Positions 1,889 through 59,294 of a stretch of DNA of 64,000 bases are shown one piece after another; positions within the stretch are counted from its first letter, which is position 1, and every line of letters starts with the position of its first letter. Origin of the DNA: Candidatus Enterousia sp. (GTDB lineage: Bacteria; Pseudomonadota; Alphaproteobacteria; Rs-D84). The notes beneath the pieces are model-generated. The model had not been told where the DNA came from. It saw only the letters and a list, made by a program, of their open reading frames with translations, and did no database searches. The DNA lies in contig JAZQCH010000008.1 in NCBI GenBank assembly GCA_045546195.1, forward strand, positions 7,481-71,480, read 5' to 3'. Made by a program: the position numbers and the translations under genes.

Positions 1889-1892
1889 TGCA

Positions 1893-3787: not shown

Positions 3788-3985
3788 ATGAAATATTTTG
3801 TACTGATTATTTGTGTCGTGATATCTGGGTCTGCGTATGCGGATTTGGCATCGACAAACTATGTCAACACGGCCATAGAAGAAAAGGTCAGTACATCTGC
3901 GAATTCAAATCAAACAATGGCGGGGACGTATGATGTGACAGGGGTGATGACTGTGGAAACGCCGCCGTTACCACCAATACCATAG
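3788..3985 (+). CDS. Small secreted protein (paralog of 1691-1888)
   Basis: Signal peptide MKYFVLIICVVISGSAYA, then LASTNYVNTAIEEKVSTSANSNQTMAGTYDVTG..TPPLPP. Confidence 0.6.
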   Translation: MKYFVLIICVVISGSAYADLASTNYVNTAIEEKVSTSANSNQTMAGTYDVTGVMTVETPPLPPIP

Positions 3986-4001
3986 GGGTAGGGTAGAGCA
4001 T

Positions 4002-14528: not shown

Positions 14529-14598
14529 AAAATCCCCGCCGACGTCCACCCACGCAAACGTTCGTTTGCGCGGGGCCCGGTTGTCGGCGGGGTTTTTT
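14527..14598 (+). repeat. Terminator hairpin carrying a conserved palindromic core (family copy 1 of 4)
   Basis: Outer stem CCCCGCCGAC/GTCGGCGGGG plus T-run. Inner core TCCACCCACGCAAACGTTCGTTTGCGCGGGGCCCGG recurs at 16921, 47463 and 51130. Confidence 0.8.
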
Positions 14599-14646
14599 AA
14601 TATGAAAAATATCATTGCGAAAAATCGCGCAAAGTGCTAAAATATA

Positions 14647-14780
14647 TGGCATAGAGCAGAAAAAACAATGCCGAAAAAAAAGGGACGATTAGATTCGGCA
14701 TAATTCTACAAAGTAATTTCCCAGATTTTCGCATAATTTGACTCCCCATTATTTGCCTAAAAAAAACGTCGGTTTGGGTG
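14647..14780 (+). promoter_or_regulatory. Conserved 5' module, copy A (upstream region plus first codons of the 14738 ORF)
   Basis: 14671-14780 aligns ungapped to 27593-27702 with 4 differences in 110 nt. Hairpin TGCCGAA-N18-TTCGGCA, two A8 tracts. A possible promoter TTGCGA-N17-TAAAAT sits at 14615-14643. Confidence 0.7.
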
Positions 14781-16054
14781 CGGCAATGCCTGCGTTTGCG
14801 GATACATTTCCATCAAACGGATATATGTTGGAAAACAAGACCTATGTCAATGCGGCAACACAACAAAACATTGGCGTGTATGACGGCACGGTGACCGCAA
14901 CCGCGGAATACGAAGATATCCTGTATCAAATTGGTGCGGGAATGTACCTGCCCGCGGGGTCGGTTGATGCGGAACAATGCCCCGCCAACAGTTATTGCCC
15001 GGGTTTGACGGACGCAACATACAACGAAAGCGCGGCCCAGGGTGCAACATCGTGCCCGTCGGGTTATCCAAATTCCGCCGCGGGCGCGTCGTCAAACACG
15101 CAATGCTATACCACATGTACGGTAAATTCGGCGAATATTGAACATGCAACGGCGGTGGCTGGTAATGATTATTACAACACCGACGCAGATACATGTTCCG
15201 CCACCGCGTGTGAAAACGGATATCATGTAAATGAAACAACGGGGATTGTCGAACAAACACCATTGATTGATGTTGATTATACCGTGGCGGGTAATGGTTG
15301 GGGGTATATCAGTGCCGACGGCAGCAAAACCTCTAAGGCCGATACATATGGCCTGACTGAATACAATACATGGGCGTCGAAATTTGGTTATGGTGTTGTG
15401 TATGGTCGCGCCAGTTGCCAATCAACACTGCATGACCCCGGCCTTGAATATATAATGGCGAATCAAAGTGGGGTGCTGAACGCGACAATGTCGCCGGATC
15501 AGGTTCGTTCGGATTTAACACCGATTGTTGGTGTGGCCAAGGCAAATTATTTTGCGGACATTGTTGCTGGCATTGCCGATGGTACCAAGGGCGAAGAAGA
15601 TTTCTGGGACGCCGTGTCTGTTGTATTTGGGAAGTTCAAGGATGCATTGTTCAGCACAACGGACACGGGTCAACATTGTTATTGCCAAATGACGGGGTTT
15701 AAATCGGGTTCGTCGTCTGTTGTTGACATTGCGTCGGCCCCGTGGGTGCTCTTCGGCGGCTACGACTCGGCGGACAAATGCGCGAACAGTTGTGCGAACA
15801 GTTGTGCATCCTACCTGCAGGGCGGTGGCACGTTTCATCGCGGGTTCCGTGGGGCGATGTACGGTGCGTTGGATTTTGTCGCCGGTGGCACATGCGCAGC
15901 GAACGAAATCACAATTAACTGGACGGACGCAACGGACGAAGATATTGCCGCAAACAACGCCGGTATGTGTACATACGGTGGTGATATCCGCACACCGGTC
16001 GCAGCCATGGAAAAACCGGGCAAAACGTTTGTTGGGTGGAAATTCAGCAAGTAA
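14738..16054 (+). CDS. Cys-rich secreted protein (family member 2), start uncertain
   Basis: The TTG start gives [21 protein letters not shown] as a weak signal peptide; an alternative ATG is at 14786. GVYDG..YED..Y..G.YLP..CPANSYCPG is shared with 16278. The C-terminal ..TINWTD..CTYGGDIRTPVAAMEKPGKTFVGWKF resembles the Listeria-Bacteroides repeat. Confidence 0.6.
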   Translation: MTPHYLPKKNVGLGAAMPAFADTFPSNGYMLENKTYVNAATQQNIGVYDGTVTATAEYEDILYQIGAGMYLPAGSVDAEQCPANSYCPGLTDATYNESAAQGATSCPSGYPNSAAGASSNTQCYTTCTVNSANIEHATAVAGNDYYNTDADTCSATACENGYHVNETTGIVEQTPLIDVDYTVAGNGWGYISADGSKTSKADTYGLTEYNTWASKFGYGVVYGRASCQSTLHDPGLEYIMANQSGVLNATMSPDQVRSDLTPIVGVAKANYFADIVAGIADGTKGEEDFWDAVSVVFGKFKDALFSTTDTGQHCYCQMTGFKSGSSSVVDIASAPWVLFGGYDSADKCANSCANSCASYLQGGGTFHRGFRGAMYGALDFVAGGTCAANEITINWTDATDEDIAANNAGMCTYGGDIRTPVAAMEKPGKTFVGWKFSK

Positions 16055-16143: not shown

Positions 16144-16256
16144 CCTTTGTCATTCCGTGGCTGGACCACGGAACCCAGGTAATGCGCGCAAAGCGCGCGC
16201 AAATAATAAAGATTTTATGACCTGGGTCCCGCGGTCCAGCCGCGGGATGACAAAGG
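16144..16256. repeat. Composite palindrome: two inverted 37-bp units, each itself a hairpin
   Basis: CCTTTGTCATTCCGTGGCTGGACCACGGAACCCAGGT (16144-16180) versus the reverse complement of 16220-16256: 33/37 identical. The 4 differences are two compensatory pairs inside the unit hairpin. Confidence 0.85.
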
Positions 16257-16277
16257 ATAGAAAAAGGTAAAATTGTT

Positions 16278-16922
16278 TTGGTGCGGTGGCGCGTGATTTT
16301 ATTATCGGCAATGCCGATAACAATGAACTGTTTCGCGGGGACGGATATAATCTTTGCCCCCGGCGCGGTCATACCAAACACATGCGTATTTAACAACACC
16401 GGCGTGTATGACGGTGCGTTTGTTATGGTACCGGTGTACGAAGATACGATATACACATGTGAACGCGGATACTATTTACCAATGGGGTTAGAGGTCTGCG
16501 CCATATGCCCCGAAAACAGTTATTGCCCCGGCGGGGAATACACATATTCTGAAACCGATGATACGGGTGTTAACCCATGTCCCGACGGCAGTGTTGCGCC
16601 CATTGGCATGTGGGACGCCGCACAATGCGGTCGCAAATTACACATCAGCGATGTGTATATCTATTTGCGTCGCGCGAAACAATCTGCGCCGTCGTTACAC
16701 ATTGATGTTGACGGTGACGGTACGGCGGATTACTTTGCGAATGCGACGACATACGATGTTGCGATGAACAAAGACACCGACCGTCGTTTGCGGATAAAAA
16801 TGGGTGATGTTGTGTATTCGGTTCACGACGACACGATTGACGGCACGGCATCAATGCCACGCGTCACACCGACAACCGAACCCGCCGAATCCACTGAACC
16901 CGTGGACGAACAATCACAATAA
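16278..16922 (+). CDS. Cys-rich secreted protein (family member 3)
   Basis: TTG/GTG start. NTGVYDGAFVMVPVYEDTIYTCERGYYLP..VCAICPENSYCPGG is homologous to the N-terminal module of 14738-16054. Confidence 0.6.
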   Translation: MVRWRVILLSAMPITMNCFAGTDIIFAPGAVIPNTCVFNNTGVYDGAFVMVPVYEDTIYTCERGYYLPMGLEVCAICPENSYCPGGEYTYSETDDTGVNPCPDGSVAPIGMWDAAQCGRKLHISDVYIYLRRAKQSAPSLHIDVDGDGTADYFANATTYDVAMNKDTDRRLRIKMGDVVYSVHDDTIDGTASMPRVTPTTEPAESTEPVDEQSQ

Positions 16923-16987
16923 AAATCCCGCCGATGTCCACCCACGCAAACATTCGTTTGCGCGGGGCCCGGATGCGGGATTTTTTA
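16921..16987. repeat. Terminator hairpin with conserved core (copy 2 of 4), between convergent genes
   Basis: AATCCCGC..GTCCACCCACGCAAACATTCGTTTGCGCGGGGCCCGG..GCGGGATTTTTT. Confidence 0.8.
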
Positions 16988-20924: not shown

Positions 20925-21096
20925 ATTTATTTGTATATCGAGGCACCCAGCTGCGGCCGCCCAAAAATTCAAACGCCCCGTGTGGGCGCTTTATTTTTTT
21001 GTGATTACAGAAATAAATTTTTATTGAATAAAAAAATATGTGTGCTAAGTTGAATATAATCATATTTGTAGGAATTATTTGACGAAAGGAGAAGTC

Positions 21097-24000
21097 ATGT
21101 CCAATACAAAACATTTGGCGGATTTGTTGAAAGTCTGCAGTATTTTGCCAGCCTTGGCAATTATGCCCGCAATGGCGGAAGAATATACCGTGGTGTCGGA
21201 AACAAAAATAGCCGAAATAGAAACTATATCAGGCGGTCATTCATGGTTGGATGCTTCTACAGCTTCAGGTAACCAGTCTGTTTGGTTTATCAAAGATGGA
21301 GATGTGACTGTTTTGTCTGAGGCAGTATTTGCAAATAACAGGGCAGATTCGGGTATTTTTTCTACATCATCAACGGCACCATCTTCTTTGACTTTGAATC
21401 CCGGGGTTGTATTTGAAAATAATACCGTTCGTTTTGATGGTGGGGCGGTTGCTAATTATAATACTTTGAATGCAAATGGTGTGACGTTCCGTAAAAATAC
21501 GGCACAGACTGATTTTGAAAATGATACAACCCCAATGGGTGGTGGTGCGTTGGCATTGGGTTCTGAATCAAAGACGATGATTCAGAATAGTATATTTAGT
21601 CAGAATGAGTCAAAGTATCATGGTGGTGCCATTGCAATGCGTGGACCAAATGATGGCGATAATTCGGCCGCTGATTTAGATATTATTGATTCTGAATTCA
21701 GAGGGAATATTGCTGCACAAAATGGTGGGGCGATTTATTCAACATTCTATGACAGTGAAAATGTCAAAGATTCTGTATATATTGAAGATAATGAATTCGT
21801 TGCAAATACAGCTGTTAATGGTGGCGCGATTTATAATGAAGGATTAGCAGATCGCAGTGATAATGTTGCCGCAATGAAGGTTATTGATTCAGAATTTGTT
21901 GGTAATATCGTAACGAATTATGGTGGCGCAATTTATAATGGCAGTAAATTGGTATTGGAAGATTCAGAGTTTAGCAAGAACGACGCGTATGTTGGTGGGG
22001 CTATGTTCTTGGCCAAGGGGTCGGATACGACAATTAAAAATTCTGAATTTGATTCGAATACCGCGGATTTTGGTGGTGCTATTTATACGTCAACGGCAAT
22101 TAAAAATGTTGATATTTCAGATTCTGAATTTACAAATAATAGCGCATTGGGTGCAGGTGCCGCTGGTATTTTTTACAAAGGTACATTGAACAATGTTTTG
22201 TTTAGTGGGAATAAAGCAACAGATGCAACCGATGATGGCGCGGGTGCATTGTTCTTGGGGGCGTTGTCGCAGGTGCAGTTGAATAATGTTGACTTTGTTA
22301 ACAATACTTCGGCGGCAATGGGTGGTGCAATCGCAATGCGCGGCGTACACGAAGGTAATAACAAGGATGCAAAACTGGATATAATCGGCGGTAGTTTTAC
22401 AGGTAATACTGCCGCAGCAGAAGGTGGTGCAATCTTTAGTACATTCTATGATAGTGAAAATGTTAAGGATTCGGTGTATATCAAGGGAACGGAATTTACA
22501 AAGAATTCTGCGGAAAGAGGTGGCGCGATTTACACCGAAGGCAAAGCTGATTTGGGTGGTGGATTGGCGTCTATGAAAATCGAAGGCGCAAAGTTCACAG
22601 AAAATACAGCCATGGCAGGAGGCGGTGCAATTCATAATTTAAGTACGCTGACGATTGAAAATAGCGATTTTTCAGGAAATAAATCTATCAGTGGTAATGG
22701 TGATGGTGGGGCGATTTATACGAACACCGGGGCACTGACGCTGAAAAATGTAGATTTCGAGGATAACTTTGTGACCGCTAATGCCCAAGGCGATATGGGG
22801 TATGGCGGTGCGATTTTCGCCCAAGGCGGAATCATTGATATCCAAGGCGGTGAATATGAAAAGAATCATGCGTTGACCGGTGGGGCAATGTATGTATCTG
22901 GCAAGGCAACATCTGTAAATATTGAAAATGTTGAATTTGAAGGAAACTGGGCGTCTGATATTGGTGCGCTGGGTATCTTTGGCAAAAATGTGACATTAAC
23001 TAATTTGATGTTTACAGACAACTATACCACGGGTCAGTACAAGGATTTTGGCTTTAATGACGGTGGTGGCGCGTTGTTCTTTGGGGCGACCGCCCAGGCG
23101 GTTTTAGATAAGGGAACATTTGTTTCAAATGAATCCGCAGGTGTGGGGGGCGCAATCGCAACACGCAGCCCGGATAAGGGTGATAACAGTGCGGCAAAGT
23201 TAGATATTAAGAATTCTACGTTCCGTGAAAATGTCGCAGCAACACAAGGTGGGGCGATTTATACTGCGTTCCATAACAGTAAAGAAGCGATAGATAATGT
23301 TTATTTGGCGGATTCTGTGTTTGTCGCAAATAAGGCAAACGAAGGTGGTGCCATCTATAACGAAGGGTTGGCGGATCGTGGCGACAACTTTGCGTCTATT
23401 TATATGACCGGTGTGACATTTAAAGATAATGTTGCATCTGTTAATGGTGGCGCAGTATTTAATGGCGCAGGTGGTACAGTCAACTTGGCCGGTATAAATG
23501 TGTTCAGTGGTAATGTGGCCCATGGATTGGCAAATGATATCCATAATATGGGTACATTAAATATCACGGGTGGTACAACCACATTGGATGGTGGTGTGAC
23601 GGGTACTGGTACATTTACGTTGGCATCGGGCGCAGAACTTGATATTGCTACGGCCGCGATTAAACAGGGGACAATCAACCTGGATGGTACAGTTGTGGCA
23701 TCGTTGTTGAACGATTCAGCACGCGGTGGTTCGTATGGGCGATTCATCGGTGATGTGCAGGTTGGCGACAACGCAATGTTTAATCTGAATGTTGGGGCTG
23801 TGGGTACCTATAATATCTGGGATGGTAAAATCGTCAAGGCCGACCAGGTGTCCGTTGGTGATATCTATGAAATCGCAGGTATTGATGTAAATGGTGTCAA
23901 GATTGTGACCAAGTCTGTTGATGAAATCGCAGAAACAGTTGGTGTCACAACCCAGGCGGCGGGCGCAGTCGCAGGTTTGGCAAATTCACACAGTGGCAAG

Positions 24001-24987
24001 GCGCACCAGGTGTCATTGGCATTACAGGATGCGTTGAACAGTGGTGATATTGCCACAGTTGAAGAAGAAGCCCAGAAACTGAATCCAACAGATAAGCCTG
24101 TGGCCCAGGCGGCGGCATCTTCGGTTCAGAACCAGGTTCTGGTGCTGACAGCGGGGCGTATGGCGGGCGGTGTTTCCGTCGGGCGTGCCGGTGGTGATGA
24201 AAAGACACAGGAAAATGGCTTCTGGATTCAGGGATTGTTTAATAAGTCAAAGTTCGGTGGCGAATTCCATGGATACACGCGTGGGGTTGCGTTGGGTGCC
24301 GATACTCTGATTGACAGAAAATGGACAATCGGTGGTGGGTTGGCATTTAATAACAGTGATGTTCATGCCGACGATTTACATACTGATATCGACAGCAAGA
24401 CCCTGTTCCTGTATGGCCAGTACAAACCAAACAATTGGTTTGTGAACGCAACGGCGACATATAGCATGTCTGAATACACAGATAATAAAGTGTTTATTGG
24501 TGGTGTTGATGACAGTTATACATATGATGTCGATGCGTATGGTGCCCAGGTTATGACTGGATATGATTTCGCGCCGGGTATTACAACCGAAGCGGGTGTG
24601 CGTTATCTGCATGTCGCCCAGGATGGATATACCGACAGTATGAACATTACGACGGTCAAAGCGTTGGATACAGATTTCCTGACGGGGGTTGCGGGTGTGA
24701 AATATGCGTTCGCAATCGAAAACGATTGGGCAATCCAGTTGCGCCCAGAACTGCGTGCGGCGATGACATACGATATCATCAGCGATGATGCGATGGCAAC
24801 CGTTGTTATGCCGGGTGTCGCATCGTACAAAGTTGATGTAGAACGTCTGAGCCGTATGGGTGGTGAATTCGGTATCGGGTTGACCGCACTGTACAAGGGC
24901 GTGGAAGTGTCACTGGTGTATGATTTGGATTTACATCGTGATTATACTTCACAGACGGGGATGATTAAATTCCGTGGACGCTTCTAA
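21097..24987 (+). CDS. Autotransporter with polymorphic-outer-membrane-protein (Pmp) type GGAI/FxxN repeats
   Basis: AGGAG precedes ATG 21097. Signal peptide ..ILPALAIMPAMA. Dozens of GGAIY / F.GN / F..N motifs. The C-terminal ~280 aa is beta-barrel-like and ends ..KFRGRF. Confidence 0.85.
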   Translation: MSNTKHLADLLKVCSILPALAIMPAMAEEYTVVSETKIAEIETISGGHSWLDASTASGNQSVWFIKDGDVTVLSEAVFANNRADSGIFSTSSTAPSSLTLNPGVVFENNTVRFDGGAVANYNTLNANGVTFRKNTAQTDFENDTTPMGGGALALGSESKTMIQNSIFSQNESKYHGGAIAMRGPNDGDNSAADLDIIDSEFRGNIAAQNGGAIYSTFYDSENVKDSVYIEDNEFVANTAVNGGAIYNEGLADRSDNVAAMKVIDSEFVGNIVTNYGGAIYNGSKLVLEDSEFSKNDAYVGGAMFLAKGSDTTIKNSEFDSNTADFGGAIYTSTAIKNVDISDSEFTNNSALGAGAAGIFYKGTLNNVLFSGNKATDATDDGAGALFLGALSQVQLNNVDFVNNTSAAMGGAIAMRGVHEGNNKDAKLDIIGGSFTGNTAAAEGGAIFSTFYDSENVKDSVYIKGTEFTKNSAERGGAIYTEGKADLGGGLASMKIEGAKFTENTAMAGGGAIHNLSTLTIENSDFSGNKSISGNGDGGAIYTNTGALTLKNVDFEDNFVTANAQGDMGYGGAIFAQGGIIDIQGGEYEKNHALTGGAMYVSGKATSVNIENVEFEGNWASDIGALGIFGKNVTLTNLMFTDNYTTGQYKDFGFNDGGGALFFGATAQAVLDKGTFVSNESAGVGGAIATRSPDKGDNSAAKLDIKNSTFRENVAATQGGAIYTAFHNSKEAIDNVYLADSVFVANKANEGGAIYNEGLADRGDNFASIYMTGVTFKDNVASVNGGAVFNGAGGTVNLAGINVFSGNVAHGLANDIHNMGTLNITGGTTTLDGGVTGTGTFTLASGAELDIATAAIKQGTINLDGTVVASLLNDSARGGSYGRFIGDVQVGDNAMFNLNVGAVGTYNIWDGKIVKADQVSVGDIYEIAGIDVNGVKIVTKSVDEIAETVGVTTQAAGAVAGLANSHSGKAHQVSLALQDALNSGDIATVEEEAQKLNPTDKPVAQAAASSVQNQVLVLTAGRMAGGVSVGRAGGDEKTQENGFWIQGLFNKSKFGGEFHGYTRGVALGADTLIDRKWTIGGGLAFNNSDVHADDLHTDIDSKTLFLYGQYKPNNWFVNATATYSMSEYTDNKVFIGGVDDSYTYDVDAYGAQVMTGYDFAPGITTEAGVRYLHVAQDGYTDSMNITTVKALDTDFLTGVAGVKYAFAIENDWAIQLRPELRAAMTYDIISDDAMATVVMPGVASYKVDVERLSRMGGEFGIGLTALYKGVEVSLVYDLDLHRDYTSQTGMIKFRGRF

Positions 24988-24996
24988 ATAAAATCT

Positions 24997-25244
24997 AATG
25001 GCATATCTATGAACGGTGCCGTCCCCTCATGTAGCGGTATGTACACTACGGGGACGGCACTGTCCATATCTATACCATTATCTTTTATTTTAAAAAATGC
25101 TATGGCATATCTGCGGGCGGGGGCGACATCTTATGTAGCGTTTGTACACTACGATGCCGCCCCCATCCCGTATCTATACCATTATCTTTTATTTAACGCC
25201 AAGGAGTAGGGTAGTGTTTGTACACCGATGTTGTCGGGATTATT
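24997..25244. repeat. Palindromic-unit array 1 (2 full units plus 1 degenerate)
   Basis: Unit: AATGGCATATCTATG, left arm, TCATGTAGCG..TGTACACTAC, right arm, CCATATCTATACCATT. Loop box GTACACTAC occurs at 25041 and 25144, with a degenerate GTACACC at 25220. Lies between convergent genes. Confidence 0.85.
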
Positions 25245-25254
25245 TCGCACCTGC

Positions 25255-25473
25255 TTAGCGAAGTTTTTGTTTGGGAAACAGGTGGTTGTGTATTTGCTTT
25301 ATTTTTTCAATTACGCGTTCATAAAAAAATGGTTCGTTTAACATGCGTTCTTCGCGGGCGGCGGCAATCGCCAGTTTTTCAGCCCGGCGTTCGCGGTCAA
25401 CACGTTCAAATTCAGTCTGTATCGCAGGGTCGCGATAGTTTGGGTCTGTGATTGTGATGCCGTATTCATCCAT
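25255..25473 (-). CDS. Hypothetical 72-aa protein downstream of the virB11-like gene
   Basis: ORF with charged helical composition (..ERVDRERRAEKLAIAAAREER..), 27 nt after the virB11-like stop on the same strand. No recognisable motif. Confidence 0.45.
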   Translation of the reverse strand: MDEYGITITDPNYRDPAIQTEFERVDRERRAEKLAIAAAREERMLNEPFFYERVIEKIKQIHNHLFPKQKLR

Positions 25474-25500
25474 TATATTATCCTTTGGTTTTGCGGGGTA

Positions 25501-26460
25501 CTATACAACTTCTGTCACAGCACGCAAGGCCCCATCGCGCGATAATTGTACAACGCGAATCTTTTTTTTCATTTCCGTAATCAAATCTGTGCGATTGTAT
25601 GCGGGTTGGGTGTGTAAAATGCGGTCGGCAAATGCCGCATAGGCGGCGTCCGCACTTTCCGCGTGAATCGTTGTATAGAAATGGTCGTGACCCGTTCCCA
25701 ACATTTCCCACAAAACAGATGCATTGTCGGTCGATATTTCGCCCCCAATAATTACATCGGGTGTCATGCGCACAACCAGGTCCAACAGGCGCGCATAATT
25801 AAAATCGTTCGTTTGTTCGGTGCGCGATAAAACAAAGTGTACCCGATTCGGTTGTGGTACGCGGATTTCGCGCGCGTCTTCGACGGTAATCACACGGCTG
25901 TTTTTATCAATCAGGGTCAGCATGTGATTCAAAAATGTCGTTTTTCCCGTTGCCGTCGCGCCGGATATCAATATGGGACTGCCGTCATTGATGGCGGACA
26001 TCAGGCGGTCGTATGGATCGTCGGGGCGGATGTTTTCGCGGGGCTTTACCTTTAACAATTTTTCCCCACGACGCAGGTGATAATTTTCAAAACTGGTATC
26101 CGGGGCACCGCCGCCGCGTATGTTTAATGCGACGCCGCCGGTGATGTCGCGTTCGTCGTATTGGACATTTGGACCCGCGATTGCGGTAAAACGATGATTG
26201 CCGGGCAGGGTGGCATATACCACAGGCATGCCGTGTATTGGATCAAATGGACGTTCATAGATGTTCGCAACGGTATGAATTAAATCGACCAGGTATTGCT
26301 TGCTTAATACCTCGGCCTGGTACGATACCCATGGAACGCGCGCACCGTGCAGACGCATCCAAACCTCGCCTGCGTGGTTGATGGCGATTTCTTCGACAAA
26401 TGATGGCGAATAAAATTCAGCCAACGGTTTTAATAAAGATTCCAGAACTATATTTGACAT
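25501..26460 (-). CDS. virB11: VirB11/TrbB-family type IV secretion ATPase (orphan)
   Basis: Walker A ISGATATGKTT, Walker B/Asp box RVITVEDAREI, His box GTGHDHFYTTIHAES, about 320 aa. Start chosen at ATG 26460 (MSNIVLESLLKPL..). Confidence 0.8.
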   Translation of the reverse strand: MSNIVLESLLKPLAEFYSPSFVEEIAINHAGEVWMRLHGARVPWVSYQAEVLSKQYLVDLIHTVANIYERPFDPIHGMPVVYATLPGNHRFTAIAGPNVQYDERDITGGVALNIRGGGAPDTSFENYHLRRGEKLLKVKPRENIRPDDPYDRLMSAINDGSPILISGATATGKTTFLNHMLTLIDKNSRVITVEDAREIRVPQPNRVHFVLSRTEQTNDFNYARLLDLVVRMTPDVIIGGEISTDNASVLWEMLGTGHDHFYTTIHAESADAAYAAFADRILHTQPAYNRTDLITEMKKKIRVVQLSRDGALRAVTEVV

Positions 26461-26537
26461 CAACTTAATTTTATCATAAATCGTGACTTGAATCAAAAAT
26501 CTTTATTTGTTAGAATCATAAAAAAGAGAGATTGAAT

Positions 26538-27511: not shown

Positions 27512-27568
27512 GTGTGGGGTTATTCAAAAAAATATATGGACAAAAATTGCGCAAATCGGTATCATGTG

Positions 27569-27702
27569 TGGTATAGAAGGAAAAAAAGACTGCCTAAAAA
27601 AAAGGGACGATTAGATTAGGCATAATTCTACAAAGTAATTTCCCAGATTTTCGCATATTTTGACTCCCCATTGTTTGCCTAAAAAAAACGTCGGTTTGGG
27701 TG
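27569..27702 (+). promoter_or_regulatory. Conserved 5' module, copy B
   Basis: Same block as 14647-14780. The hairpin here is TGCCTAA-N18-TTAGGCA, a compensatory change relative to copy A. The block starts at TGGTATAGA. Confidence 0.7.
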
Positions 27703-34685: not shown

Positions 34686-35783
34686 ATGAAAAAGGCAAAG
34701 AAACAGATTAATGTTATCGAAATCGATACGCGTGACGCAGACTATCAGACCGGTATTGGGCGGTATATCGATATTGTGTCGCGTAATATGCCAGATTATG
34801 TTCATACATATCGCATCATTTTATATCGCACGCATAAAAATGAATTACATATCACAGAAACAGATACGGAATTGTCGGTATATATGACGACCAGTATGCA
34901 TAATTCCGTATTGAATAATATCATTATTCAGATGTGGGGGGCGAAAATCGCCAAGATGCAGAATTTGATTCTGAAAGTGAACTGTGTTGGGATGGAGACT
35001 TTGGCGTACGCGATTCGTACACAGTTTTATTGTAAAATTGTTGGGGTACTGCATTTTTCGCCACAGTGGATTTTGGACGGAAAGCCGGGACGGAAAAATA
35101 ATCCGTTCTTTAATATGGATCATGTTATTTCTGTGTTTGCGCGTGGGGTTGAATACCTGCGGGAAATTAAGTGTGTGCGGCCGCACACCGTGATTTTGAA
35201 CGGAATTGAACCGCCTAAAATAACCCCGCGTCCGCGTGATGACGTGTTCAGATTTATTTTCCCAAATGGATGGGCAAAGCGCAAGGGACTGGTCAAGATT
35301 TTGCCAGCATTTAAAAAAGTCGCAGAAAAGCATAATATCGAAGTTCTAATCCTGGGGGGATATGGACCCGAGATTAAGCCCGAAGAATTGTCGCGTGATT
35401 TGCCGGTGCGTTTGTTGGGACTGATAAACGACGAAAACGAGGTTGCAAAATACTATGATATGTCAGATTGCTGTTTATTCGCATCCGCGTCCGAGGCATG
35501 TTCCATCGCCGGGATAGAGGCAATGTCGCGCAATATGCCGATAATATCGACAAACTGCGAAGGGTTGGCGGAAATGTTTGGTAATGCGGCGCTGTATGTA
35601 AAAATGGGGGCAGATTATTCGATTGATGCGGATGAATATGCCGCGCATATGTGCAGCATTATTGAAAATAAACGTCTGCGCAACAAATTGTCTGTGTTGG
35701 CGTATTCGCGATATGTTTCGCATTATACCGCCAAGAAGATGGTCGCCGAAACATTAAAGATATACGAGAAGTTGACCGATTAA
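34686..35783 (+). CDS. Glycosyltransferase family 1 (GT-B, GT4-like)
   Basis: C-terminal half ..LFASASEACSIAGIEAMSRNMPIISTNCEGLAEMFG.. fits the E-x7-E GT1 motif region. Confidence 0.8.
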   Translation: MKKAKKQINVIEIDTRDADYQTGIGRYIDIVSRNMPDYVHTYRIILYRTHKNELHITETDTELSVYMTTSMHNSVLNNIIIQMWGAKIAKMQNLILKVNCVGMETLAYAIRTQFYCKIVGVLHFSPQWILDGKPGRKNNPFFNMDHVISVFARGVEYLREIKCVRPHTVILNGIEPPKITPRPRDDVFRFIFPNGWAKRKGLVKILPAFKKVAEKHNIEVLILGGYGPEIKPEELSRDLPVRLLGLINDENEVAKYYDMSDCCLFASASEACSIAGIEAMSRNMPIISTNCEGLAEMFGNAALYVKMGADYSIDADEYAAHMCSIIENKRLRNKLSVLAYSRYVSHYTAKKMVAETLKIYEKLTD

Positions 35784-35812
35784 AAATCCCCCAGTTGGGG
35801 GATTTTTATTTT
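35782..35812. terminator. Bidirectional terminator between convergent genes
   Basis: AAAAATCCCCC-AGTT-GGGGGATTTTTATTTTTT. Confidence 0.75.
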
Positions 35813-36672
35813 TTGATGCTTATTATATCATAATTTTTCAATGGGGTGACGGTAAGAGTGTGTGATAATGTCGCCCCCGATGATGTTGTTGGAATCATAC
35901 ATTCGGTCATTGTGTTTCTGTAATCTGCGTGTTTGGATTGGTCGGCCGTAGGCAGACTTAGGATTATCGCGCAGGTTTTCATTACTTCGTTGTTCGGACA
36001 CTGCCAGCACTGTTTCAAAACGGCGGCTGGGATTTGGTGGAATTTTTTTGCGTGTTCTTCGCGGGTGACACATTTTTTTGTTGATGTGTCCCAAACCTGG
36101 GTCGCGGTGTTACATTTTGTACAAATGCCATTTGAATCAATGCCCTGGGTTGATGTGGTTGGACATTCAACACAGTTATTGGATGTGGCACTTTCATAGC
36201 CAATATTGCCGTCATTTGCGCCGCATGGTTCGGTACAGGTGCCGTTGCGTTTAATCAAATTGCCGTTACAGTTGGTTGGTTCGGTACATGGTTTGTCGGA
36301 TACAACATTGCCACAGGCGTCTGTGACCCGTTGATATGTACATGTGCCGTTTGACAGGTCAACAGTGATGGTTTCGGATGTTGTCCAATTTTTTGCCTCT
36401 ACAAAATTGCCCTGTTTGGATGTGGTGCCGTTACAACACCATGCCTTGACCGAGCCATATGTGAACGATTGGCCATGGTATAGCCAATGGATATTATGGC
36501 GTTTGCGCATTTTTTGTTTACATTTTTTTTCCTGGGAACCACAGAACCAGGCACTGTCCGTGCCGTCTGTTTCCAGATAGCATTTATTGTTTGTGTCAAA
36601 CCCGTTCTTGGGTTCGGCAAACGCAGCGTTTGTACATAAAATAACTGAAATCGCGATGATAAATTTTTGCAT
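35806..36672 (-). CDS. Cys-rich secreted protein (family member 6)
   Basis: Signal peptide MQKFIIAISVILCTNAAFA. Many Cys, including NNCVECPTTSTQG and ICTKCN. Confidence 0.7.
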   Translation of the reverse strand: MQKFIIAISVILCTNAAFAEPKNGFDTNNKCYLETDGTDSAWFCGSQEKKCKQKMRKRHNIHWLYHGQSFTYGSVKAWCCNGTTSKQGNFVEAKNWTTSETITVDLSNGTCTYQRVTDACGNVVSDKPCTEPTNCNGNLIKRNGTCTEPCGANDGNIGYESATSNNCVECPTTSTQGIDSNGICTKCNTATQVWDTSTKKCVTREEHAKKFHQIPAAVLKQCWQCPNNEVMKTCAIILSLPTADQSKHADYRNTMTECMIPTTSSGATLSHTLTVTPLKNYDIISIKK

Positions 36673-39335: not shown

Positions 39336-40358
39336 TTATTTTCTGATTCGTATTTCGGATTTTATGCGGTTGATTTTCGCAGGTATTTTTTCTTTGGCTT
39401 CATTCAGCCAACGCTTCATACGCGAACGCAACCAACGTTCATAGATAAAGAACAAACTGCCCATGCCAATCAGTGGCAGAACATAGTAAATGATGCGATA
39501 GGCAAGCAAGGCACCGAAAATATTGGCCTTGTCCACAGTGTCGGGCAGGGCGACCAGAAATACTGTTTCAAAAACGCCAATACCACCGGGAACCTGGCTA
39601 AAAATGCCGGTTGATTGGGCAATCGCAAACAGGCCCATAAACACAACGAACGGTATTTTTACAAACGGGGTCAGACAGAAATAAAGCACCAGACCGGCCA
39701 GAATACTGTCTGTGATGCCCAGGATTGTTTGGGTAAATGCCATGCCAGTTGATGGAATTTGGAATTTTAACTGTCCGATTTTTATGCTTTTTTTGTGAAA
39801 GAATATTGTTGTCGCAAAATACACTAATAATGTGACCAAACAAAATATGAACAGGGCGTTGATACCGATGCTGGCCCCAACCGAATTTTGAAACAGTTCG
39901 TGCGGTATCAAGAAATAACTGATGACCACAATGGCAGATGCCCCCAGGAAATATGTGAATCCGGATATTGTCAGCATCTTGACAATGTCGCCGCCGCGTA
40001 TGCGCCAACGGGTGTACAGACGGTATCGAATCGCGCCACCACTGACCACGGCGTGACCGGCATTATTACTGATTGCGAACCCCAGCATCCCCGCCAGCAT
40101 CCATTTCCACCATGAAACACGTCCGCCAACATAGCTTAACGCCAAATAATCATACAGGGACAGTGCCAAATACCCCAACATACATGCCACGCATGCCATC
40201 GCCAGGTTCGTAAATGGAATATCTAATATTGCGTGTGCGATGTCGGACAGACTGTAATTACGCAATTGCCACCACAACATGCCGGCAGCCAACACAAAAA
40301 AGAAAATGCCCGAATAACTGATTACTTTCTTAATCAGGCGTTTTGCCCGTACTGACAT
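39336..40358 (-). CDS. Multi-pass membrane protein, lysyl-PG-synthase TM-region-like (UPF0104/flippase-like)
   Basis: 340 aa, about 8 TM segments. N-terminal pattern ..WQLRNYSLSDIAHAIL..P...LA.A......YLALSLYDYLAL.. resembles the MprF TM domain. Confidence 0.55.
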   Translation of the reverse strand: MSVRAKRLIKKVISYSGIFFFVLAAGMLWWQLRNYSLSDIAHAILDIPFTNLAMACVACMLGYLALSLYDYLALSYVGGRVSWWKWMLAGMLGFAISNNAGHAVVSGGAIRYRLYTRWRIRGGDIVKMLTISGFTYFLGASAIVVISYFLIPHELFQNSVGASIGINALFIFCLVTLLVYFATTIFFHKKSIKIGQLKFQIPSTGMAFTQTILGITDSILAGLVLYFCLTPFVKIPFVVFMGLFAIAQSTGIFSQVPGGIGVFETVFLVALPDTVDKANIFGALLAYRIIYYVLPLIGMGSLFFIYERWLRSRMKRWLNEAKEKIPAKINRIKSEIRIRK

Positions 40359-40426
40359 AAAAATCCTTTTACAAGAGTAATAGGATAACTATTTCACAAT
40401 AAAAATCAATCTAAATAAAATAATGA

Positions 40427-40732
40427 CATATCTATGGGCGGTGTTGTCCCCTCATGTAGCGTCTGTACACTACGGGGACAACACTACCCATATCTATGCC
40501 ATTATTCCCCACTGTTTTGTGGGGTGGGGTAGCGTTTGTACACTACGGTTGTGGGTTTAACCGTATCTATCCCATTATTTTTCTTTTTTATTTGTTGGCG
40601 CGCTCATGTATCGTTTGTACACTACGCTTGCCAACAACGGCGCATCTATGCCATTATTCCCCATTTTTTTGTGGGGGTGGGGTAGCGTTTGTACACTACG
40701 GGGACAACACTACCCATATCTATGCCATTATT
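40427..40732. repeat. Palindromic-unit array 2 (4 units, period 73-79 bp)
   Basis: Alternating conserved boxes (C)ATATCTATGCCATTATT and GTAGCGTTTGTACACTACG, with the loop box at 40465, 40538, 40617 and 40691. The variable segments between them are partly self-complementary. Confidence 0.85.
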
Positions 40733-40740
40733 CCTTTGGT

Positions 40741-42798
40741 TTAACCAACGGTCAGGTCTTTGCCCTTTACGTCGATATAGACGGTGCTGCCTTCGCCGAT
40801 GGAGCCAGTCAGAATAAGGTCTGCGATTTTATCTTCGAGTGCAGATGTAATCAGACGCTTTAATGGGCGGGCACCAAATACGGCGTCATACCCGTTGTCG
40901 CCCAGCCATTTGATGGCCTTGTCGGTTATGTTTAATTCAATATGCCGTTCGGCCAGGCGTTTTTCCAGACCGCGCAGTTGGATTTTGACAATGCCCGCCA
41001 TTACATCTTTGCCCAGTGGGTTAAAGAACACAATTTCATCGATACGGTTGATGAATTCAGGACGGAAATGGTGTTTTACTGCGTCCATATCGGGCAGGTT
41101 GCTGGTCATGATTATAATGGTGTTGGTAAAGTTCACCACGTGACCCTGGCCGTCGGTCAGGCGGCCGTCATCCAGAATTTGTAAGAATACATTGAATACA
41201 TCTGGGTTGGCCTTTTCAATTTCATCGAACAGTAAAACCTGGTATGGGCGACGACGAACGCTTTCGGTTAAAACGCCGCCTTGTTCATAGCCGACATATC
41301 CCGGGGGACTGCCAATCAGGCGGGAAACCGAGTGTGGTTCCATATATTCACTCATGTCAATTCGGGTCATGGCTGTGTCGTCGTTGAACAGATATTCCGC
41401 CAGGGACTTTGCGACCTCGGTCTTGCCGACGCCGGTGGGCCCCAGGAACATGAAACTGCCCATTGGGCGACGCGGGTCGGACAGGCCAGCGCGGCTGCGA
41501 CGGATGGCGCGGGCGATTACCCCCAGGGCATGGTCTTGGCCGACGACACGTTTGCGCAGTTCATCTTCGATATTTAATAATTTTGACTGTTCTTCGGCAT
41601 TTAAACGGTCGGCGGGGACGCCGGTCCATTTGCTGACAACGGCGGCAATATGTTCCGGCAGAACCGTTTTGTATTCGCGTGCGTTCGCGTTCATCTGATT
41701 TATCTGTTCTTCCAGTTCGGGTATCTTGCCGTACTGCAGGGCGGATGCCTTTTCATAGTCGCCATTTCGCATGGCGGTGGCAACTTCGGCCTTGGCGGAA
41801 TCAAGTGCCGCCATCGCATCAGACAGGGCGCGCATCTTTTTCTGTTCAGATTGCCATTTGGCGGTTAATTCTTTGGATTCTGCTTCGACCCCGGTGATAA
41901 TGTTTTCTAATTCTTTCAGACGTTTTTTTGATTCTTCGTCTTTTTCCTTTTTTAATGCCTGTTGCTCGATTTTTAACTGCATTAAATGACGGTCAACTTC
42001 GTCCAGGCGGTCTGGTTTAGAGGCAACCTCGATTCGGACGCGGGCGGCCGCTTCGTCAATCAGGTCAATTGCCTTGTCCGGCAGGAATCGGTCGGTAATA
42101 TATCGATTCGATAATTTGACCGCAGACACCAATGCAGCGTCGGCGATTCGTACGCCATGGTGGCCTTCGTATTTTTCTTTTAGGCCGCGCAGGATTGAAA
42201 TCGTGTCATCAACGGTTGGTTCGTCCACATAGACAGGCTGAAAACGGCGTGCCAGGGCGGGGTCTTTTTCAATATATTGGCGATATTCGTCCAATGTCGT
42301 TGCCCCCAGGCAGTGTAATTCACCACGTGCCAACATTGGTTTTAACAGGTTGGCTGCATCCATGGAACCTTCGCCTTTGCCGGCGCCAACCAGGGTATGT
42401 AATTCATCGATAAACAGGATGATTTTGCCGTCGGCGTCTTTGATGGCTTTCAGAATTGCTTTCAGGCGGCCTTCGAATTGGCCGCGAAACGACGCGCCCG
42501 CCATCAGCGCACCCATATCTAGTGACAATAACTGTTTGTTTAACAGGTTTTCGGGTACGTCGCCTGATATGATGCGATTCGCCAAACCTTCGACAATGGC
42601 GGTTTTACCAACGCCGGGATTGCCGATTAACACGGGGTTGTTTTTTGTGCGACGGCTTAATACCTGGATTGAACGGCGAATTTCTTCGTCGCGGCCAATG
42701 ACCGGGTCCAGTTTGCCGTCGGATGCCAGTTTTGTAAAATCAGTCGTATATTTTTCAATCGCCTGTTGTGGTGATTCTTGTAAATCGTCTGGGTTCAT
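40741..42798 (-). CDS. clpB: ClpB disaggregase lacking the N-terminal domain
   Basis: 685 aa, AAGGAG SD. Begins at the linker ..[29 protein letters not shown], followed by NBD1 GNPGVGKT, the coiled-coil M-domain and NBD2 GPTGVGKT. Confidence 0.9.
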
Positions 42799-42944
42799 TG
42801 TTATGACTCCTTAAGAAATTTTTTCGTTTGCCCTATATATAGTGCCATAAAGTCGTCTTTCAAGACACAGGAACAAATGCCGAAATGCGTCCTTGCGATG
42901 GGGCGAAATTTATTCTAGACTTAGGATATACAAAGGATGGACAT

Positions 42945-46522: not shown

Positions 46523-46552
46523 AAAAAAATCCCCCACCCGGGGGATTTTTTT
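46523..46552 (+). terminator. Intrinsic terminator after the dsbA-like gene
   Basis: AAAAAAATCCCCC-ACCC-GGGGGATTTTTTT. Confidence 0.75.
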
Positions 46553-46593
46553 ATTTCCCGCTTACTTCGATAAACTTTTATTTATCTAAGTAA

Positions 46594-47455: not shown

Positions 47456-47462
47456 TTTAATT

Positions 47463-59289: not shown

Positions 59290-59294
59290 ATAAT

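What the first reader, a model, noticed from the sequence alone, without database searches (positions are those of the whole stretch)
24997..25244. Palindromic-unit array 1: conserved loop and base boxes with covarying middle stems
Each ~86-bp unit is a long imperfect palindrome. Its parts, in order, are a base box AATGGCATATCTATG, a variable left arm, a loop box TCATGTAGCG(NN)TGTACACTAC, a variable right arm, and a base box CCATATCTATACCATT. In unit 1 the arms are GGTGCCGTCCCC (25015-25026) and GGGGACGGCAC (25050-25060). The homologous unit in array 2 has GGTGTTGTCCCC and GGGGACAACAC, a double compensatory change (CC:GG versus TT:AA). Unit 2 uses entirely different but still complementary arms (GGGGGCGACATC / GATGCCGCCCCC). 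A conserved loop with free but paired stems is the opposite of CRISPR logic. It is unusual for simple REP elements. The array sits between convergent genes: the Pmp autotransporter, and the small ORF plus virB11-like gene.
Basis: seen in the sequence. Interest (0 to 1): 0.66.

Follow-up and report, generated by a model that had tools for sequence, protein, structure and literature searches.

The report
Strand-oriented palindromic repeats at gene ends
The two arrays belong to a previously undescribed family of about 106-base hairpin repeats found across the small-genome gut bacteria Candidatus Enterousia; the repeats sit on the stop codons of genes and almost always point the same way relative to DNA replication, which suggests they spread or act as single-stranded DNA.

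Summary
Each full unit is about 106 nt, not 86. It is a three-tier hairpin:
- an A/T-rich basal stem with ATCT opposite ATCT;
- an 18-bp variable middle stem;
- a 4-nt TCAT bulge;
- an invariant apical box, GTAGCG(N2-3)TGTACACTAC. This box is itself a 7-bp stem with a small variable loop.

The window holds only the two arrays. The same apical box occurs in about 110 fetched 8-kb tiles from about 60 Enterousia (order Rs-D84) MAGs, and not in viral, plasmid or phage records.

Arms pair with their own partner far better than with arms of other units. They fall into about 23 recurring classes. At orthologous sites the class differs in 57 of 80 pairs, so arms change by replacement. Near-identical units occur at distant loci of one genome, and about half of orthologous sites are empty.

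Two new properties stand out. First, the left end supplies TAA in all three frames, and 96 of 98 arrays abut the stop codon of a co-oriented gene. Second, 111 of 112 arrays have the same strand on the G-rich (leading) strand, and no lagging-strand gene end (0 of 235) carries its own sense copy.

Best reading: a REP/MITE-like mobile hairpin repeat acting through single-stranded DNA and doubling as a gene-end hairpin. No transposase was found, and the mechanism is inferred.

The parts
24985..25091 (+). Array 1, unit 1 (full). Basal box 24985-25008, which includes the Pmp stop codon TAA at 24985-24987. Left arm 25009-25026. TCAT bulge 25027-25030. Apical box GTAGCGGTATGTACACTAC 25031-25049. Right arm 25050-25067. 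Right basal box 25068-25091.
   Evidence: Sequence. Covariance model R1 99.7 bits, E 9e-21. DNA fold -25.6 kcal/mol, z -8.6.
25092..25195 (+). Array 1, unit 2 (full, different arm class). Left basal box to 25112. Left arm GCGGGCGGGGGCGACATC 25113-25130. TTAT bulge 25131-25134. Apical box 25135-25152. Right arm 25153-25171. Right basal box 25172-25194.
   Evidence: R1 68.3 bits. Fold.
25196..25244 (+). Array 1, degenerate partial third unit. Linker ACGCCAAGGAGTAGG, decayed apical box GTAGTGTTTGTACACC at 25211-25226, arm remnant GATGTTGTCGGGA.
   Evidence: Sequence. The same linker-plus-box layout is seen in follower units of other arrays.
40412..40506 (+). Array 2, unit 1 (full hairpin, A-rich end shortened). 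Apical box 40456-40473. Arms GGTGTTGTCCCC / GGGGACAACAC.
   Evidence: R1 79.1 bits. Fold z -7.6.
40507..40581 (+). Array 2, unit 2 (follower). Mini-hairpin CCCCACTGTTTTGTGGGG replaces the left base and arm. Apical box 40529-40546, then right arm and right basal box.
40582..40660 (+). Array 2, unit 3. Short hairpin of the GTTGGCGCGC / GCTTGCCAAC arm class, apical box variant GTATCG...CTAC at 40608-40625, right basal box.
   Evidence: R1 25 bits, partial.
40661..40737 (+). Array 2, unit 4 (follower). Mini-hairpin CCCCATTTTTTTGTGGGGG, apical box 40682-40699. Right arm and basal box are identical to those of unit 1.
   Evidence: family D2, 98% identity..
21079..24987 (+). Upstream leading-strand gene (Chlamydia-type PMP repeats plus autotransporter beta-domain). 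Its TAA stop lies inside the left end of unit 1.
   Evidence: Pfam. Stop-codon analysis.
25255..26496 (-). Convergent minus-strand genes facing array 1: a 72-aa ORF with no Pfam hit (25255-25473) and a T2SSE/VirB11-like ATPase (25501-26496).
40741..42810 (-). ClpA/ClpB-type AAA+ gene whose stop faces the right end of array 2. Together with the LPG_synthase_TM gene at 39336-40388 (-), it makes array 2 the one clear case with no co-oriented upstream gene.
   Evidence: Pfam..

Best explanation
These are copies of a clade-specific, non-autonomous palindromic repeat. It works like REP, MITE or IS200/IS605-derived elements, and it multiplies and turns over within Enterousia chromosomes.

Shown:
- Each unit is a roughly 106-nt three-tier hairpin. 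Its invariant parts are the apical 7-bp stem-loop, the TCAT bulge and the ATCT/ATCT internal loop. All of these are asymmetric between the two strands.
- The middle stem can be any sequence as long as it pairs.
- Units are copied within genomes, replaced at orthologous sites, gained or lost, and built into head-to-tail arrays that all lie on one strand.
- The top strand lies on the G-rich (leading-strand-sequence) strand in 111 of 112 arrays.
- The left end supplies TAA in all three frames and sits on the stop codon of a leading-strand gene.

Inferred:
- The conserved asymmetric features let a trans-acting, structure-specific enzyme tell the two strands apart when the DNA is single-stranded at the replication fork. 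An HUH-type nuclease or another ssDNA recombinase is the obvious candidate.
- Under this model, insertion is strand-specific as for IS608 and ISDra2, or only copies in the orientation that folds poorly on the exposed lagging-strand template survive. Either route gives the replication polarity.
- Purifying selection in a roughly 90% coding genome then leaves only insertions at gene ends.
- There the long hairpin with its A- and T-tracts can stand in for the usual terminator.
For: Family and spread:
- The exact apical box occurs in at least 119 tiles, about 110 of them Enterousia or Rs-D84 MAGs (taxonomy from PMC12306168).
- It is absent as an element from viral contigs, plasmids and phages.
- Rfam has no matching family.

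Structure:
- Covariation is shown.

Copying within genomes:
- Arms match within 2 differences in 16.8% of within-genome pairs against 3.4% between genomes.
- Units with 0-3 differences out of about 105 nt lie at distant loci. L016 and L095 are 144 kb apart on one contig.

Turnover:
- The arm class differs in 57 of 80 orthologous filled pairs.
- In an ascertainment-corrected test, 28 orthologous sites were filled and 24 empty.
- Unit-number variants appear in metagenome contigs.

Polarity:
- By whole-tile GC skew, 102 of 105 loci agree.
- With the leading strand assigned from third-codon-position GC skew of genes only, 111 of 112 arrays agree.
- A gene's own sense element is present at 82 of 441 leading-strand gene ends and at 0 of 235 lagging-strand gene ends (Fisher 4.5e-17).
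- Genes antisense to the unit still show GC3 skew of +0.24 in the unit's orientation.
- All tiles from the same contig share one orientation.

Strand asymmetry:
- The bottom strand folds better than the top in 62-63 of 64 distinct full units (window units).

Gene-end position:
- The left boundary is sharp and offers TAA in three frames.
- In 96 of 98 arrays a co-oriented open frame of at least 80 codons stops within the left end.
- TAA is the stop in 104 of 107 cases.

Terminator substitution:
- Empty orthologous sites in L119, L017 and L110 carry canonical terminators.

Literature:
- Replication-oriented insertion is documented for IS200/IS605 elements (PMC3971601; PMC6006769).
Against: - No Y1/HUH transposase, Rep or relaxase was found. 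Pfam on about 50 window ORFs found none.
- tblastn of two transposase sequences recalled from memory against 0.96 Mb of loci also found nothing. This is a weak negative.
- Quentin et al. report few or no Y1 genes in Alphaproteobacteria, including the Rickettsiales.
- No clean target-site duplication or exact empty-versus-filled junction could be derived, because the species compared are too diverged.
- The strand that folds better is the one on the leading-strand template. This is the opposite of the simplest IS608 analogy, so which strand is active is unknown.
- Follower units that lack a left half show that arrays also grow or decay by recombination or slippage, not only by insertion.
- Gene conversion between copies could account for within-genome similarity without any transposition.
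Confidence: 0.5

Rival explanations
1. The element is primarily a host gene-end RNA element. It would be transcribed as the 3' end of the upstream mRNA and act as a terminator, a 3'-end stabiliser or an RNase III/RNA-binding-protein site. Its apical stem-loop would be the protein contact, and its spread would be secondary.
For: - It abuts the stop codon in 96 of 98 arrays.
- It has an A-tract, a long hairpin and a T-tract.
- Canonical terminators occupy the same place at empty orthologous sites. One related contig shows the same behind a Pmp-like gene end.
- Metatranscriptome contigs cover the Pmp 3' end and the array, at similar depth in X26 (contigs 10 and 11). None covers 25217-25418.
Against: - The element is never found in sense orientation behind a lagging-strand gene (0 of 235 against 82 of 441). 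A purely RNA-level role does not predict this.
- Window array 2 lies between two minus-strand genes and is antisense to both.
- The sense (top) strand is consistently the poorer folder.
- The units do not meet a simple intrinsic-terminator definition.
- About half of orthologous sites lack the element.
- The RNA evidence is unstranded, comes from contigs, and is inflated by repeat collapse.
Confidence: 0.2
2. The element is a replication-linked polar signal read on single-stranded DNA. One option is an sso/ssi-like hairpin that recruits RNA polymerase or primase on the lagging-strand template. Another is a polar signal of the Chi or KOPS kind, presented on a hairpin.
For: - Near-absolute co-orientation with the replication strand.
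- The architecture parallels ssoA origins: a long imperfect palindrome, function in one orientation only, a conserved basal sequence, and the hexamer TAGCGT (CS-6) in the apical region. The box reads G-TAGCG-T/A/G... (PMC4598088; PMC5703833).
- The top strand, which carries TAGCG, is the lagging-strand template.
Against: - The CS-6 match is a six-base resemblance noticed after the fact.
- There is no blastn similarity to any plasmid or phage.
- The basal box is not convincingly like the RSB sequence quoted. This was judged by eye only.
- Occupancy is about 50% at orthologous sites, with arrays of 1-5 units and degenerate followers. That looks like a dispensable, dynamic element, not a required signal.
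- Position is tied to stop codons, not to any spacing along the chromosome.
Confidence: 0.1
3. The element is a strand-selective site for a site-specific recombinase, working like integron attC or hairpin recombination sites. In this reading the better-folding bottom strand is the active one. Only copies whose active strand lies on the rarely single-stranded leading-strand template persist.
For: - The asymmetric imperfections are conserved in every arm class: the bulge, a C.A versus T.G pair in the apical stem, and TC.TC versus tandem G.A.
- The apical box read as duplex is two 8-bp inverted half-sites, GTAGCGTT and TACACTAC, around a central TG.
- A serine recombinase gene lies in the window at 59932-60573.
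Against: - No integrase is nearby, there are no gene cassettes between units, and there are no R'/R'' core sites.
- The spacing between the half-sites varies by one base (N2 or N3), which suits a recombinase poorly.
- The window's recombinase has no homologue in 0.9 Mb of element-bearing loci.
Confidence: 0.07
4. The arrays are a local duplication artefact or a chance palindrome with no wider meaning.
For: Within the window there are only two arrays.
Against: - There are hundreds of copies in about 60 genomes.
- Covariation is strong.
- Position and polarity are non-random.
Confidence: 0.01

Closest known systems
REP / BIME / REPIN repeats mobilised by RAYT (TnpA-REP) Y1 transposases
   Same: Extragenic palindromic repeats in many copies, found at gene 3' ends and between convergent genes, often in clusters. 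Several sequence classes occur per genome. A GTAG tetranucleotide is present. They are thought to act as single-stranded hairpins.
   Different: - The unit is about 106 nt with three tiers, not 20-40 nt.
- GTAG sits in the apical stem, not 5' of the hairpin foot.
- Clusters are head-to-tail on one strand, not alternating.
- No RAYT was found.
- The polarity with replication is near-absolute, and the left end is fused to the stop codon.
IS200/IS605 family (IS608, ISDra2) and their miniature derivatives (PATEs)
   Same: Hairpins with conserved imperfections that distinguish the strands. No obvious target-site duplication. Strong orientation bias relative to replication, because transposition uses the lagging-strand template.
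   Different: - Those elements have two different subterminal hairpins and a defined 4-5 nt target. Here the whole element is one hairpin and no fixed upstream target motif was seen.
- No TnpA or TnpB was found.
- The better-folding strand is on the leading-strand template.
Long intergenic palindromic repeats and MITEs: ERIC/IRU, Neisseria Correia elements, Rickettsia palindromic elements
   Same: Imperfect palindromes of 100-150 bp, specific to a clade, scattered at gene ends, able to act as terminators or RNA processing sites. Rickettsia palindromic elements also occur in reduced alphaproteobacterial genomes. These properties are from my own knowledge.
   Different: - Those families are conserved along their whole length and insert in either orientation.
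- Correia elements have terminal inverted repeats and a TA duplication.
- Rickettsia elements often sit inside genes.
- None is known to me to combine an invariant apex, exchangeable middle stems and replication polarity.
ssoA-type single-strand origins of rolling-circle plasmids
   Same: A long imperfect palindrome that is active only when single-stranded and only in one orientation, with a conserved basal sequence plus TAGCGT (CS-6) at the apex.
   Different: - The elements here are chromosomal and present in many copies, in arrays.
- There is no sequence similarity beyond the hexamer.
- There is no associated Rep gene or double-strand origin.
Integron attC sites
   Same: Structure is conserved while sequence varies. 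Extrahelical or asymmetric bases select one strand. The sites directly follow stop codons. Orientation relative to replication matters.
   Different: - There are no R''/R' core sites, no IntI and no cassettes between the units.
- In attC the conserved parts are at the base and the apex is variable. Here the apex is the invariant part.

Membership tests
REP/RAYT system | Short (about 20-40 nt) imperfect palindrome | tested here: not met
   The unit is about 106 nt with 44 modelled pairs.
REP/RAYT system | Conserved GT[AG]G tetranucleotide 5' of the foot of the hairpin (definition in PMC6006769) | tested here: not met
   GTAG is invariant but forms the first four pairs of the apical stem, above the TCAT bulge. 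It is not at the foot.
REP/RAYT system | Cognate tnpA-REP (Y1 HUH) gene, usually flanked by REPs | tested here: inconclusive
   None was found among about 50 window ORFs. tblastn of recalled RAYT and IS608 TnpA sequences against 0.96 Mb of loci found nothing. Whole genomes could not be scanned.
REP/RAYT system | Extragenic and multi-copy, typically clustered in alternating orientation (BIME/REPIN) | tested here: not met
   The elements are extragenic and multi-copy, but all 124 arrays lie on a single strand, head-to-tail.
IS200/IS605-derived miniature elements | Orientation bias with the replication strand | tested here: met
   111 of 112 arrays. 102 of 105 loci.
IS200/IS605-derived miniature elements | Distinct left-end and right-end subterminal hairpins, and insertion 3' of a fixed 4-5 nt target without duplication | tested here: not met
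   The whole element is one hairpin. Positions upstream of the left boundary show no conserved target. No duplication is visible, but the junctions are too diverged to be sure.
Classical MITE (DDE transposon derivative) | Terminal inverted repeats plus a target-site duplication, with insertion in either orientation | tested here: not met
   The ends are inverted repeats only as part of a full-length palindrome. No duplication was seen. Orientation is not random.
Intrinsic (Rho-independent) terminator | G+C-rich stem with a 3-8 nt loop, immediately followed by a T-run | tested here: not met
   The consensus scan does not call the units. The T-run is separated from the G+C-rich stem by a 23-nt A/T-rich basal stem. 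Whether the units actually terminate transcription was not tested.
ssoA single-strand origin | CS-6 (TAGCGT) in the terminal loop | tested here: inconclusive
   TAGCG followed by T, A or G is present in the apical box. It lies in the apical stem, and the match is only a hexamer.
ssoA single-strand origin | RSB sequence, and location on a rolling-circle replicon with Rep and a double-strand origin | tested here: not met
   There is no blastn similarity to any of 72,556 plasmids. The copies are chromosomal, among housekeeping genes.
ssoA single-strand origin | Supports RNA polymerase-primed complementary-strand synthesis in one orientation | not testable with these tools
   This needs an in vitro or plasmid assay.
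Integron attC | R''/L''...L'/R' core sites (RYYYAAC / GTTRRRY), cassette ORFs between sites, and IntI nearby | tested here: not met
   There are no such cores in the boxes. Units are adjacent with no ORFs between them. No integrase lies near the arrays.
Any Rfam RNA family | Match to a curated covariance model | tested here: not met
   Only tRNAs pass the gathering scores in the window. The arrays give only chance microRNA-model hits far below threshold.

The most novel reading that the evidence does not exclude
The units are not merely selfish repeats. They would be a chromosome-wide set of strand-selective single-stranded-DNA signals, with the invariant apical stem-loop plus TCAT bulge read by a host protein on one replication strand only. 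Possible roles are sso/ssi-like priming or RNA polymerase entry on the lagging-strand template, or a hairpin-presented polar signal for repair or segregation. The exchangeable middle stem would serve only to extrude the signal. That would be a new class of replication-oriented genome architecture element in reduced-genome Alphaproteobacteria.
Probability: 0.12. Interest if true: 0.85.

Novelty: new variant of a known kind. Interest (0 to 1): 0.62.

Why it matters
Enterousia and its order Rs-D84 are uncultured gut bacteria with genomes of about 0.75-1.0 Mb and about 90% coding density. Selfish DNA is expected to be purged from such genomes. Yet they carry a clade-wide family of 106-nt hairpin repeats that turns over faster than the flanking genes.

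Three features make the family useful beyond cataloguing:

1. **A clean separation of constraints.** Sequence is invariant at the apex and base, while only pairing is kept in the middle. This points to a specific protein-hairpin recognition event that can be tested directly.
2. **Replication polarity.** At 111 of 112 arrays, the polarity is among the strongest reported for any repeat that encodes no protein. It offers a way to study single-stranded DNA transactions at the fork in an uncultured lineage. It may also give a practical marker of replichore orientation in fragmented MAGs.
3. **A ready-made gene end.** Stop codons in all three frames, followed by a hairpin with a T-tract, show how a mobile repeat can take over stop-codon and possibly terminator function in a compact genome.

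These repeats also break short-read assemblies of these MAGs.

Tried and rejected
- **Rfam**: no family. Only sub-threshold microRNA-model hits typical of any long hairpin.
- **Plasmid and phage blastn**: nothing. Four viral contigs hold the exact box but do not fit the covariance model, so they are chance matches.
- **Chance hits in the genome scan:** the tiles from non-Enterousia genomes were set aside (an archaeon, Xenorhabdus, Amaricoccus, Anaerolineae, Haloarcula, Nomurabacteria, Gelidibacter, Taibaiella). The flanks shown have no hairpin context.
- **Y1 transposase search:** tblastn with IS608 TnpA and E. coli RAYT sequences recalled from memory gave no credible hit in Enterousia loci. 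Pfam on essentially all window ORFs found none.
- **Serine recombinase at 59932-60573:** considered as a partner and dropped, because it has no homologue in the loci.
- **First gene-context classification**: it gave six 'both neighbours antisense' cases. Inspection showed most were artefacts of my crude ORF picker. I replaced it with the stop-codon test and the GC3-based strand test.
- **G.T versus A.C mismatch counts to pick the folded strand:** the result was mixed between the upper and lower stem and dominated by class-specific positions. I replaced it with folding energies of both strands.
- **Exact insertion junctions and target duplications** from filled versus empty sites: the intergenic DNA is too diverged.
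- **Metatranscriptome and metagenome contigs**: they are unstranded, break at the repeats, and have depth inflated by other copies. They show only that the units are present in RNA-derived contigs and that unit number varies.
- **Right-base-box census**: it double-counts the reverse strand because the bases are near-palindromic. I used it only for per-position variability of the apical box.
- **ORF 25009-25209:** the 66-aa frame across array 1 is read as a chance open frame through the repeat. This was not tested.
Full report
**1. What is in the window**

The region 24985-25244 holds two full palindromic units (24985-25091 and 25092-25195) and a third, decayed partial unit whose box lies at 25211-25226. 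A second array at 40412-40737 holds four units.

The apical pattern ATGTAGCG-NN-TGTACACTAC occurs five times in the window against 0.03 expected. The right base box occurs seven times against 0.55. Full units fold much better than dinucleotide shuffles, with z down to -8.6.

A covariance model built from related units (R1) was run with filters off over all 64 kb. It finds only these two arrays. Rfam has no matching family.

**2. Anatomy, from about 190 copies**

The exact apical box was searched in one genome per GTDB species. About 110 of them come from about 60 MAGs labelled Candidatus Enterousia, Alphaproteobacteria bacterium or uncultured Rickettsiales, taken from ruminant, horse, human and other guts. 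Enterousia belongs to the uncultured order Rs-D84, with genomes of about 0.75-1.0 Mb (PMC12306168). That paper does not mention repeats.

The consensus unit reads 5'→3' as follows:
- (A/T)AAAT(A/T)AA(A/T)T(A/C)TAAT....ATCT, the basal left box;
- an 18-nt arm;
- TCAT;
- GTAGCG(N2-3)TGTACACTAC;
- the complementary arm;
- ATCT....ATT.T..TT.ATTT, the basal right box.

Three details matter:
- The basal stem contains ATCT opposite ATCT. This is a TC.TC mismatch on the top strand and a tandem G.A on the bottom strand.
- The bulge is TCAT in 140 units and TTAT in 31, out of 184.
- The 'loop box' is itself a 7-bp stem, GTAGCGT/ACACTAC. It has one C.A pair on the top strand, which is T.G on the bottom strand. 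Its 4-5 nt loop carries the only freely varying positions.

**3. Covariation**

On 48 seed units, which I had selected for pairing, 90.8% of cells pair. Twenty-eight of 44 pairs show changes on both sides, no shuffle out of 500 reaches this, and slid registers drop to about 38% paired.

An unselected test used all 165 distinct arm pairs. A left arm matches its own right arm far better than arms of other units: mean score 9.4 against 2.8, with a score of 12 or more in 45% against 2.6%. About 40% of units pair poorly. These are 'follower' units in arrays, or chimeras.

The arms are not free. Well-paired units fall into about 23 classes that recur in many species. The two largest classes are found in 18 and 13 loci.

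**4. Dynamics**

- At 80 orthologous site pairs with both flanks conserved (70-94% identity), the first unit's arm class differs in 57 and is similar in only 9. This holds even at more than 90% flank identity. The window's own array 1 and its orthologue in MAG SIG46 (L019) have unrelated arms.
- In a test that removes ascertainment, 28 orthologous sites were filled and 24 empty.
- Within a genome, units at different loci share arms five times more often than between genomes. Identical arms are 17 times more frequent. Full units differing at 0-3 of about 105 positions occur at distant loci, for example L016 and L095, 144 kb apart on one contig.
- Unit-number variants of array 1 appear in metagenome and metatranscriptome contigs.
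- Arrays have 1-5 units and are always head-to-tail on one strand. Later units often lack the left base box and carry a short linker instead, such as ..GCAAGGGG.. or ACGCTAATCACGAAC.

Together these show copying, replacement, gain and loss. Most of the 'covariation' is between element lineages.

**5. Position**

The left boundary is sharp. Its consensus offers TAA at three positions, one in each reading frame.

In 96 of 98 arrays that start with a full unit, a co-oriented open frame of at least 80 codons stops at -31 to -9 relative to the end of the left ATCT. That is at or inside the left end. The stop is TAA in 104 of 107 cases.

In the window, the Pmp autotransporter stop (24985-24987) is the first three bases of unit 1. 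The right side is looser, with a median of 27 nt to a convergent stop.

Some empty orthologous sites (L119, L017, L110) carry an ordinary A-tract, GC-hairpin, T-tract terminator in the same place. The units themselves are not called by a simple terminator scan.

**6. Polarity**

- Every tile has all its units on one strand, and tiles from the same contig agree.
- Whole-tile GC skew is positive in the unit's orientation in 102 of 105 loci.
- This is not just gene direction. Genes antisense to the unit still have GC3 skew of +0.24 in the unit's orientation, with 89% positive, against +0.35 for co-oriented genes.
- When the leading strand is assigned per tile from the GC3 skew of genes alone, 111 of 112 arrays have their top strand on the G-rich strand.
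- 82 of 441 leading-strand gene ends carry their own sense unit, against 0 of 235 lagging-strand gene ends (Fisher 4.5e-17).
- Window array 2 sits between two minus-strand genes, a ClpA-like gene and an LPG_synthase_TM gene. It still keeps the leading-strand orientation.

That the G-rich strand is the leading strand is inferred from standard bacterial skew and from the majority gene direction. It was not shown with a mapped origin.

**7. Strand asymmetry**

The bottom strand folds better than the top in 62-63 of 64 distinct full units. As RNA the means are -47.9 against -37.7 kcal/mol, and as DNA -27.3 against -22.6 kcal/mol. The window units behave the same way.

All the conserved imperfections point the same way: the C.A/T.G pair in the apical stem, the TC.TC/GA.AG loop, and the A.C/G.T pairs in the lower stem.

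Conserved imperfections that distinguish the two strands are typical of DNA hairpins read in single-stranded form. Examples from established knowledge are IS200/IS605 ends, attC sites, REPs and single-strand origins.

**8. Interpretation**

The best-supported reading is a REP/MITE-like mobile hairpin repeat. Its invariant, asymmetric apex and base are the recognition surface for a trans-acting enzyme working on single-stranded DNA at the fork. Its middle stem only needs to pair. In a compact genome it survives at gene ends, where it supplies a stop codon and probably a terminator-like hairpin.

The polarity can arise in two ways:
- strand-specific insertion, as documented for IS608 and ISDra2; or
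- survival of only those copies whose better-folding (or active) strand is not on the exposed lagging-strand template.

I cannot tell which applies. The enzyme is missing from everything I could scan. That is the main weakness, so confidence is about 0.5.

**9. Rivals**

- **A purely RNA-level gene-end element.** This explains the position. It does not explain the absence behind lagging-strand genes, the antisense array 2, or the weaker fold of the sense strand.
- **A replication-linked single-stranded DNA signal.** This would be sso-like. The box contains TAGCG(T), the CS-6 hexamer of ssoA origins, and the layout is similar. It fits the polarity. It does not fit the 50% occupancy, the arrays and the decay. 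The sequence resemblance is only a hexamer, with no plasmid similarity.
- **A recombinase site.** This lacks any associated recombinase.
- **The null of a local artefact.** This is refuted.

**10. Novelty**

I found no description of these repeats in the searchable literature on Enterousia. No Rfam family matches, and there is no similarity in the plasmid, phage or viral collections.

The family fails the defining features of REP/RAYT, classical MITEs, IS200/IS605 derivatives, attC and ssoA. It shares working principles with several of them.

I rate it a new variant of a known kind (hairpin-forming intergenic repeats). The unusual combination is an invariant apex, exchangeable stems, a three-frame stop end and near-absolute replication polarity.

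Noticed in passing
window 16144-16256; also 14529-14583, 16921-16975 and 47462-47516: A 113-nt near-perfect palindrome that ARAGORN calls a tRNA on both strands and that R1 hits weakly. It lies between two ORFs with no Pfam hit (14717-16054, 16251-16922) whose GC3 skew is atypical. A separate G+C-rich 55-nt hairpin repeat flanks this block and recurs at 47462 (family D7). This looks like a second repeat family, or a small inserted block.
   Followed up: partly
window 59932-60573 (+), next to ssb at 59341-59811 (-): A serine recombinase (Resolvase N-terminal domain, E 9e-32) in an otherwise housekeeping neighbourhood. It has no homologue in 0.9 Mb of element-bearing loci.
   Followed up: partly
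L078:5713-5818 (MAG Mgla_MAG_35): The basal boxes are inverted (AGAT...AGAT, reverse complement of the usual bases), while the apical box and TCAT bulge keep their usual orientation on the G-rich strand. This suggests that the apex, not the base, carries the polarity. It is a single example.
   Followed up: no
Right flanks of units, e.g. window 25196-25210; L016, L025, L060, L063, L089: A recurrent linker module follows the T-rich right end or replaces the left half of follower units. Examples are ACGCCAAGCAAGGGGTGGG, CCCACTGCAAGGGG (a CCCC/GGGG mini-hairpin) and ACGCTAATCACGAAC. It is copied together with the unit. Its role is unknown.
   Followed up: partly
window 471-502, 35782-35813, 46525-46556, 48382-48413, 59293-59324 and others: Canonical bidirectional terminators (A-tract, CCCCC/GGGGG hairpin, T-tract) form a 9-member look-alike family and also sit within 0-18 nt of stop codons. 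In this genome, sitting tight against the stop codon is therefore normal for gene-end hairpins.
   Followed up: partly
window 24993 onward, in run X3: A DNA contig matches the Pmp-type gene end up to 24993, then continues with a canonical terminator (AAAATCCCGCCAGACGGCGGGGTTCTTTT) instead of the array. It may be an empty allele or a paralogous Pmp gene end.
   Followed up: no
window 14605-14780 and 27527-27702: A 176-nt direct repeat at 85% identity, 12.9 kb apart (family D3). Not examined.
   Followed up: no
window 1770-3527, 2799-3239, and 3951-5060 / 4745-4861: Tandem 93-nt coding repeats lie inside large ORFs that have no Pfam hit. A 62-nt repeat is shared by 1319-1380 and 3532-3593. These may be repeat-containing surface proteins.
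   Followed up: no
L070, L062 (empty orthologous sites): Some empty sites keep short A/T-rich strings that look like fused left and right basal ends, for example TAAATAAAATTAATT. These could be footprints of hairpin-mediated deletion of a former unit.
   Followed up: no
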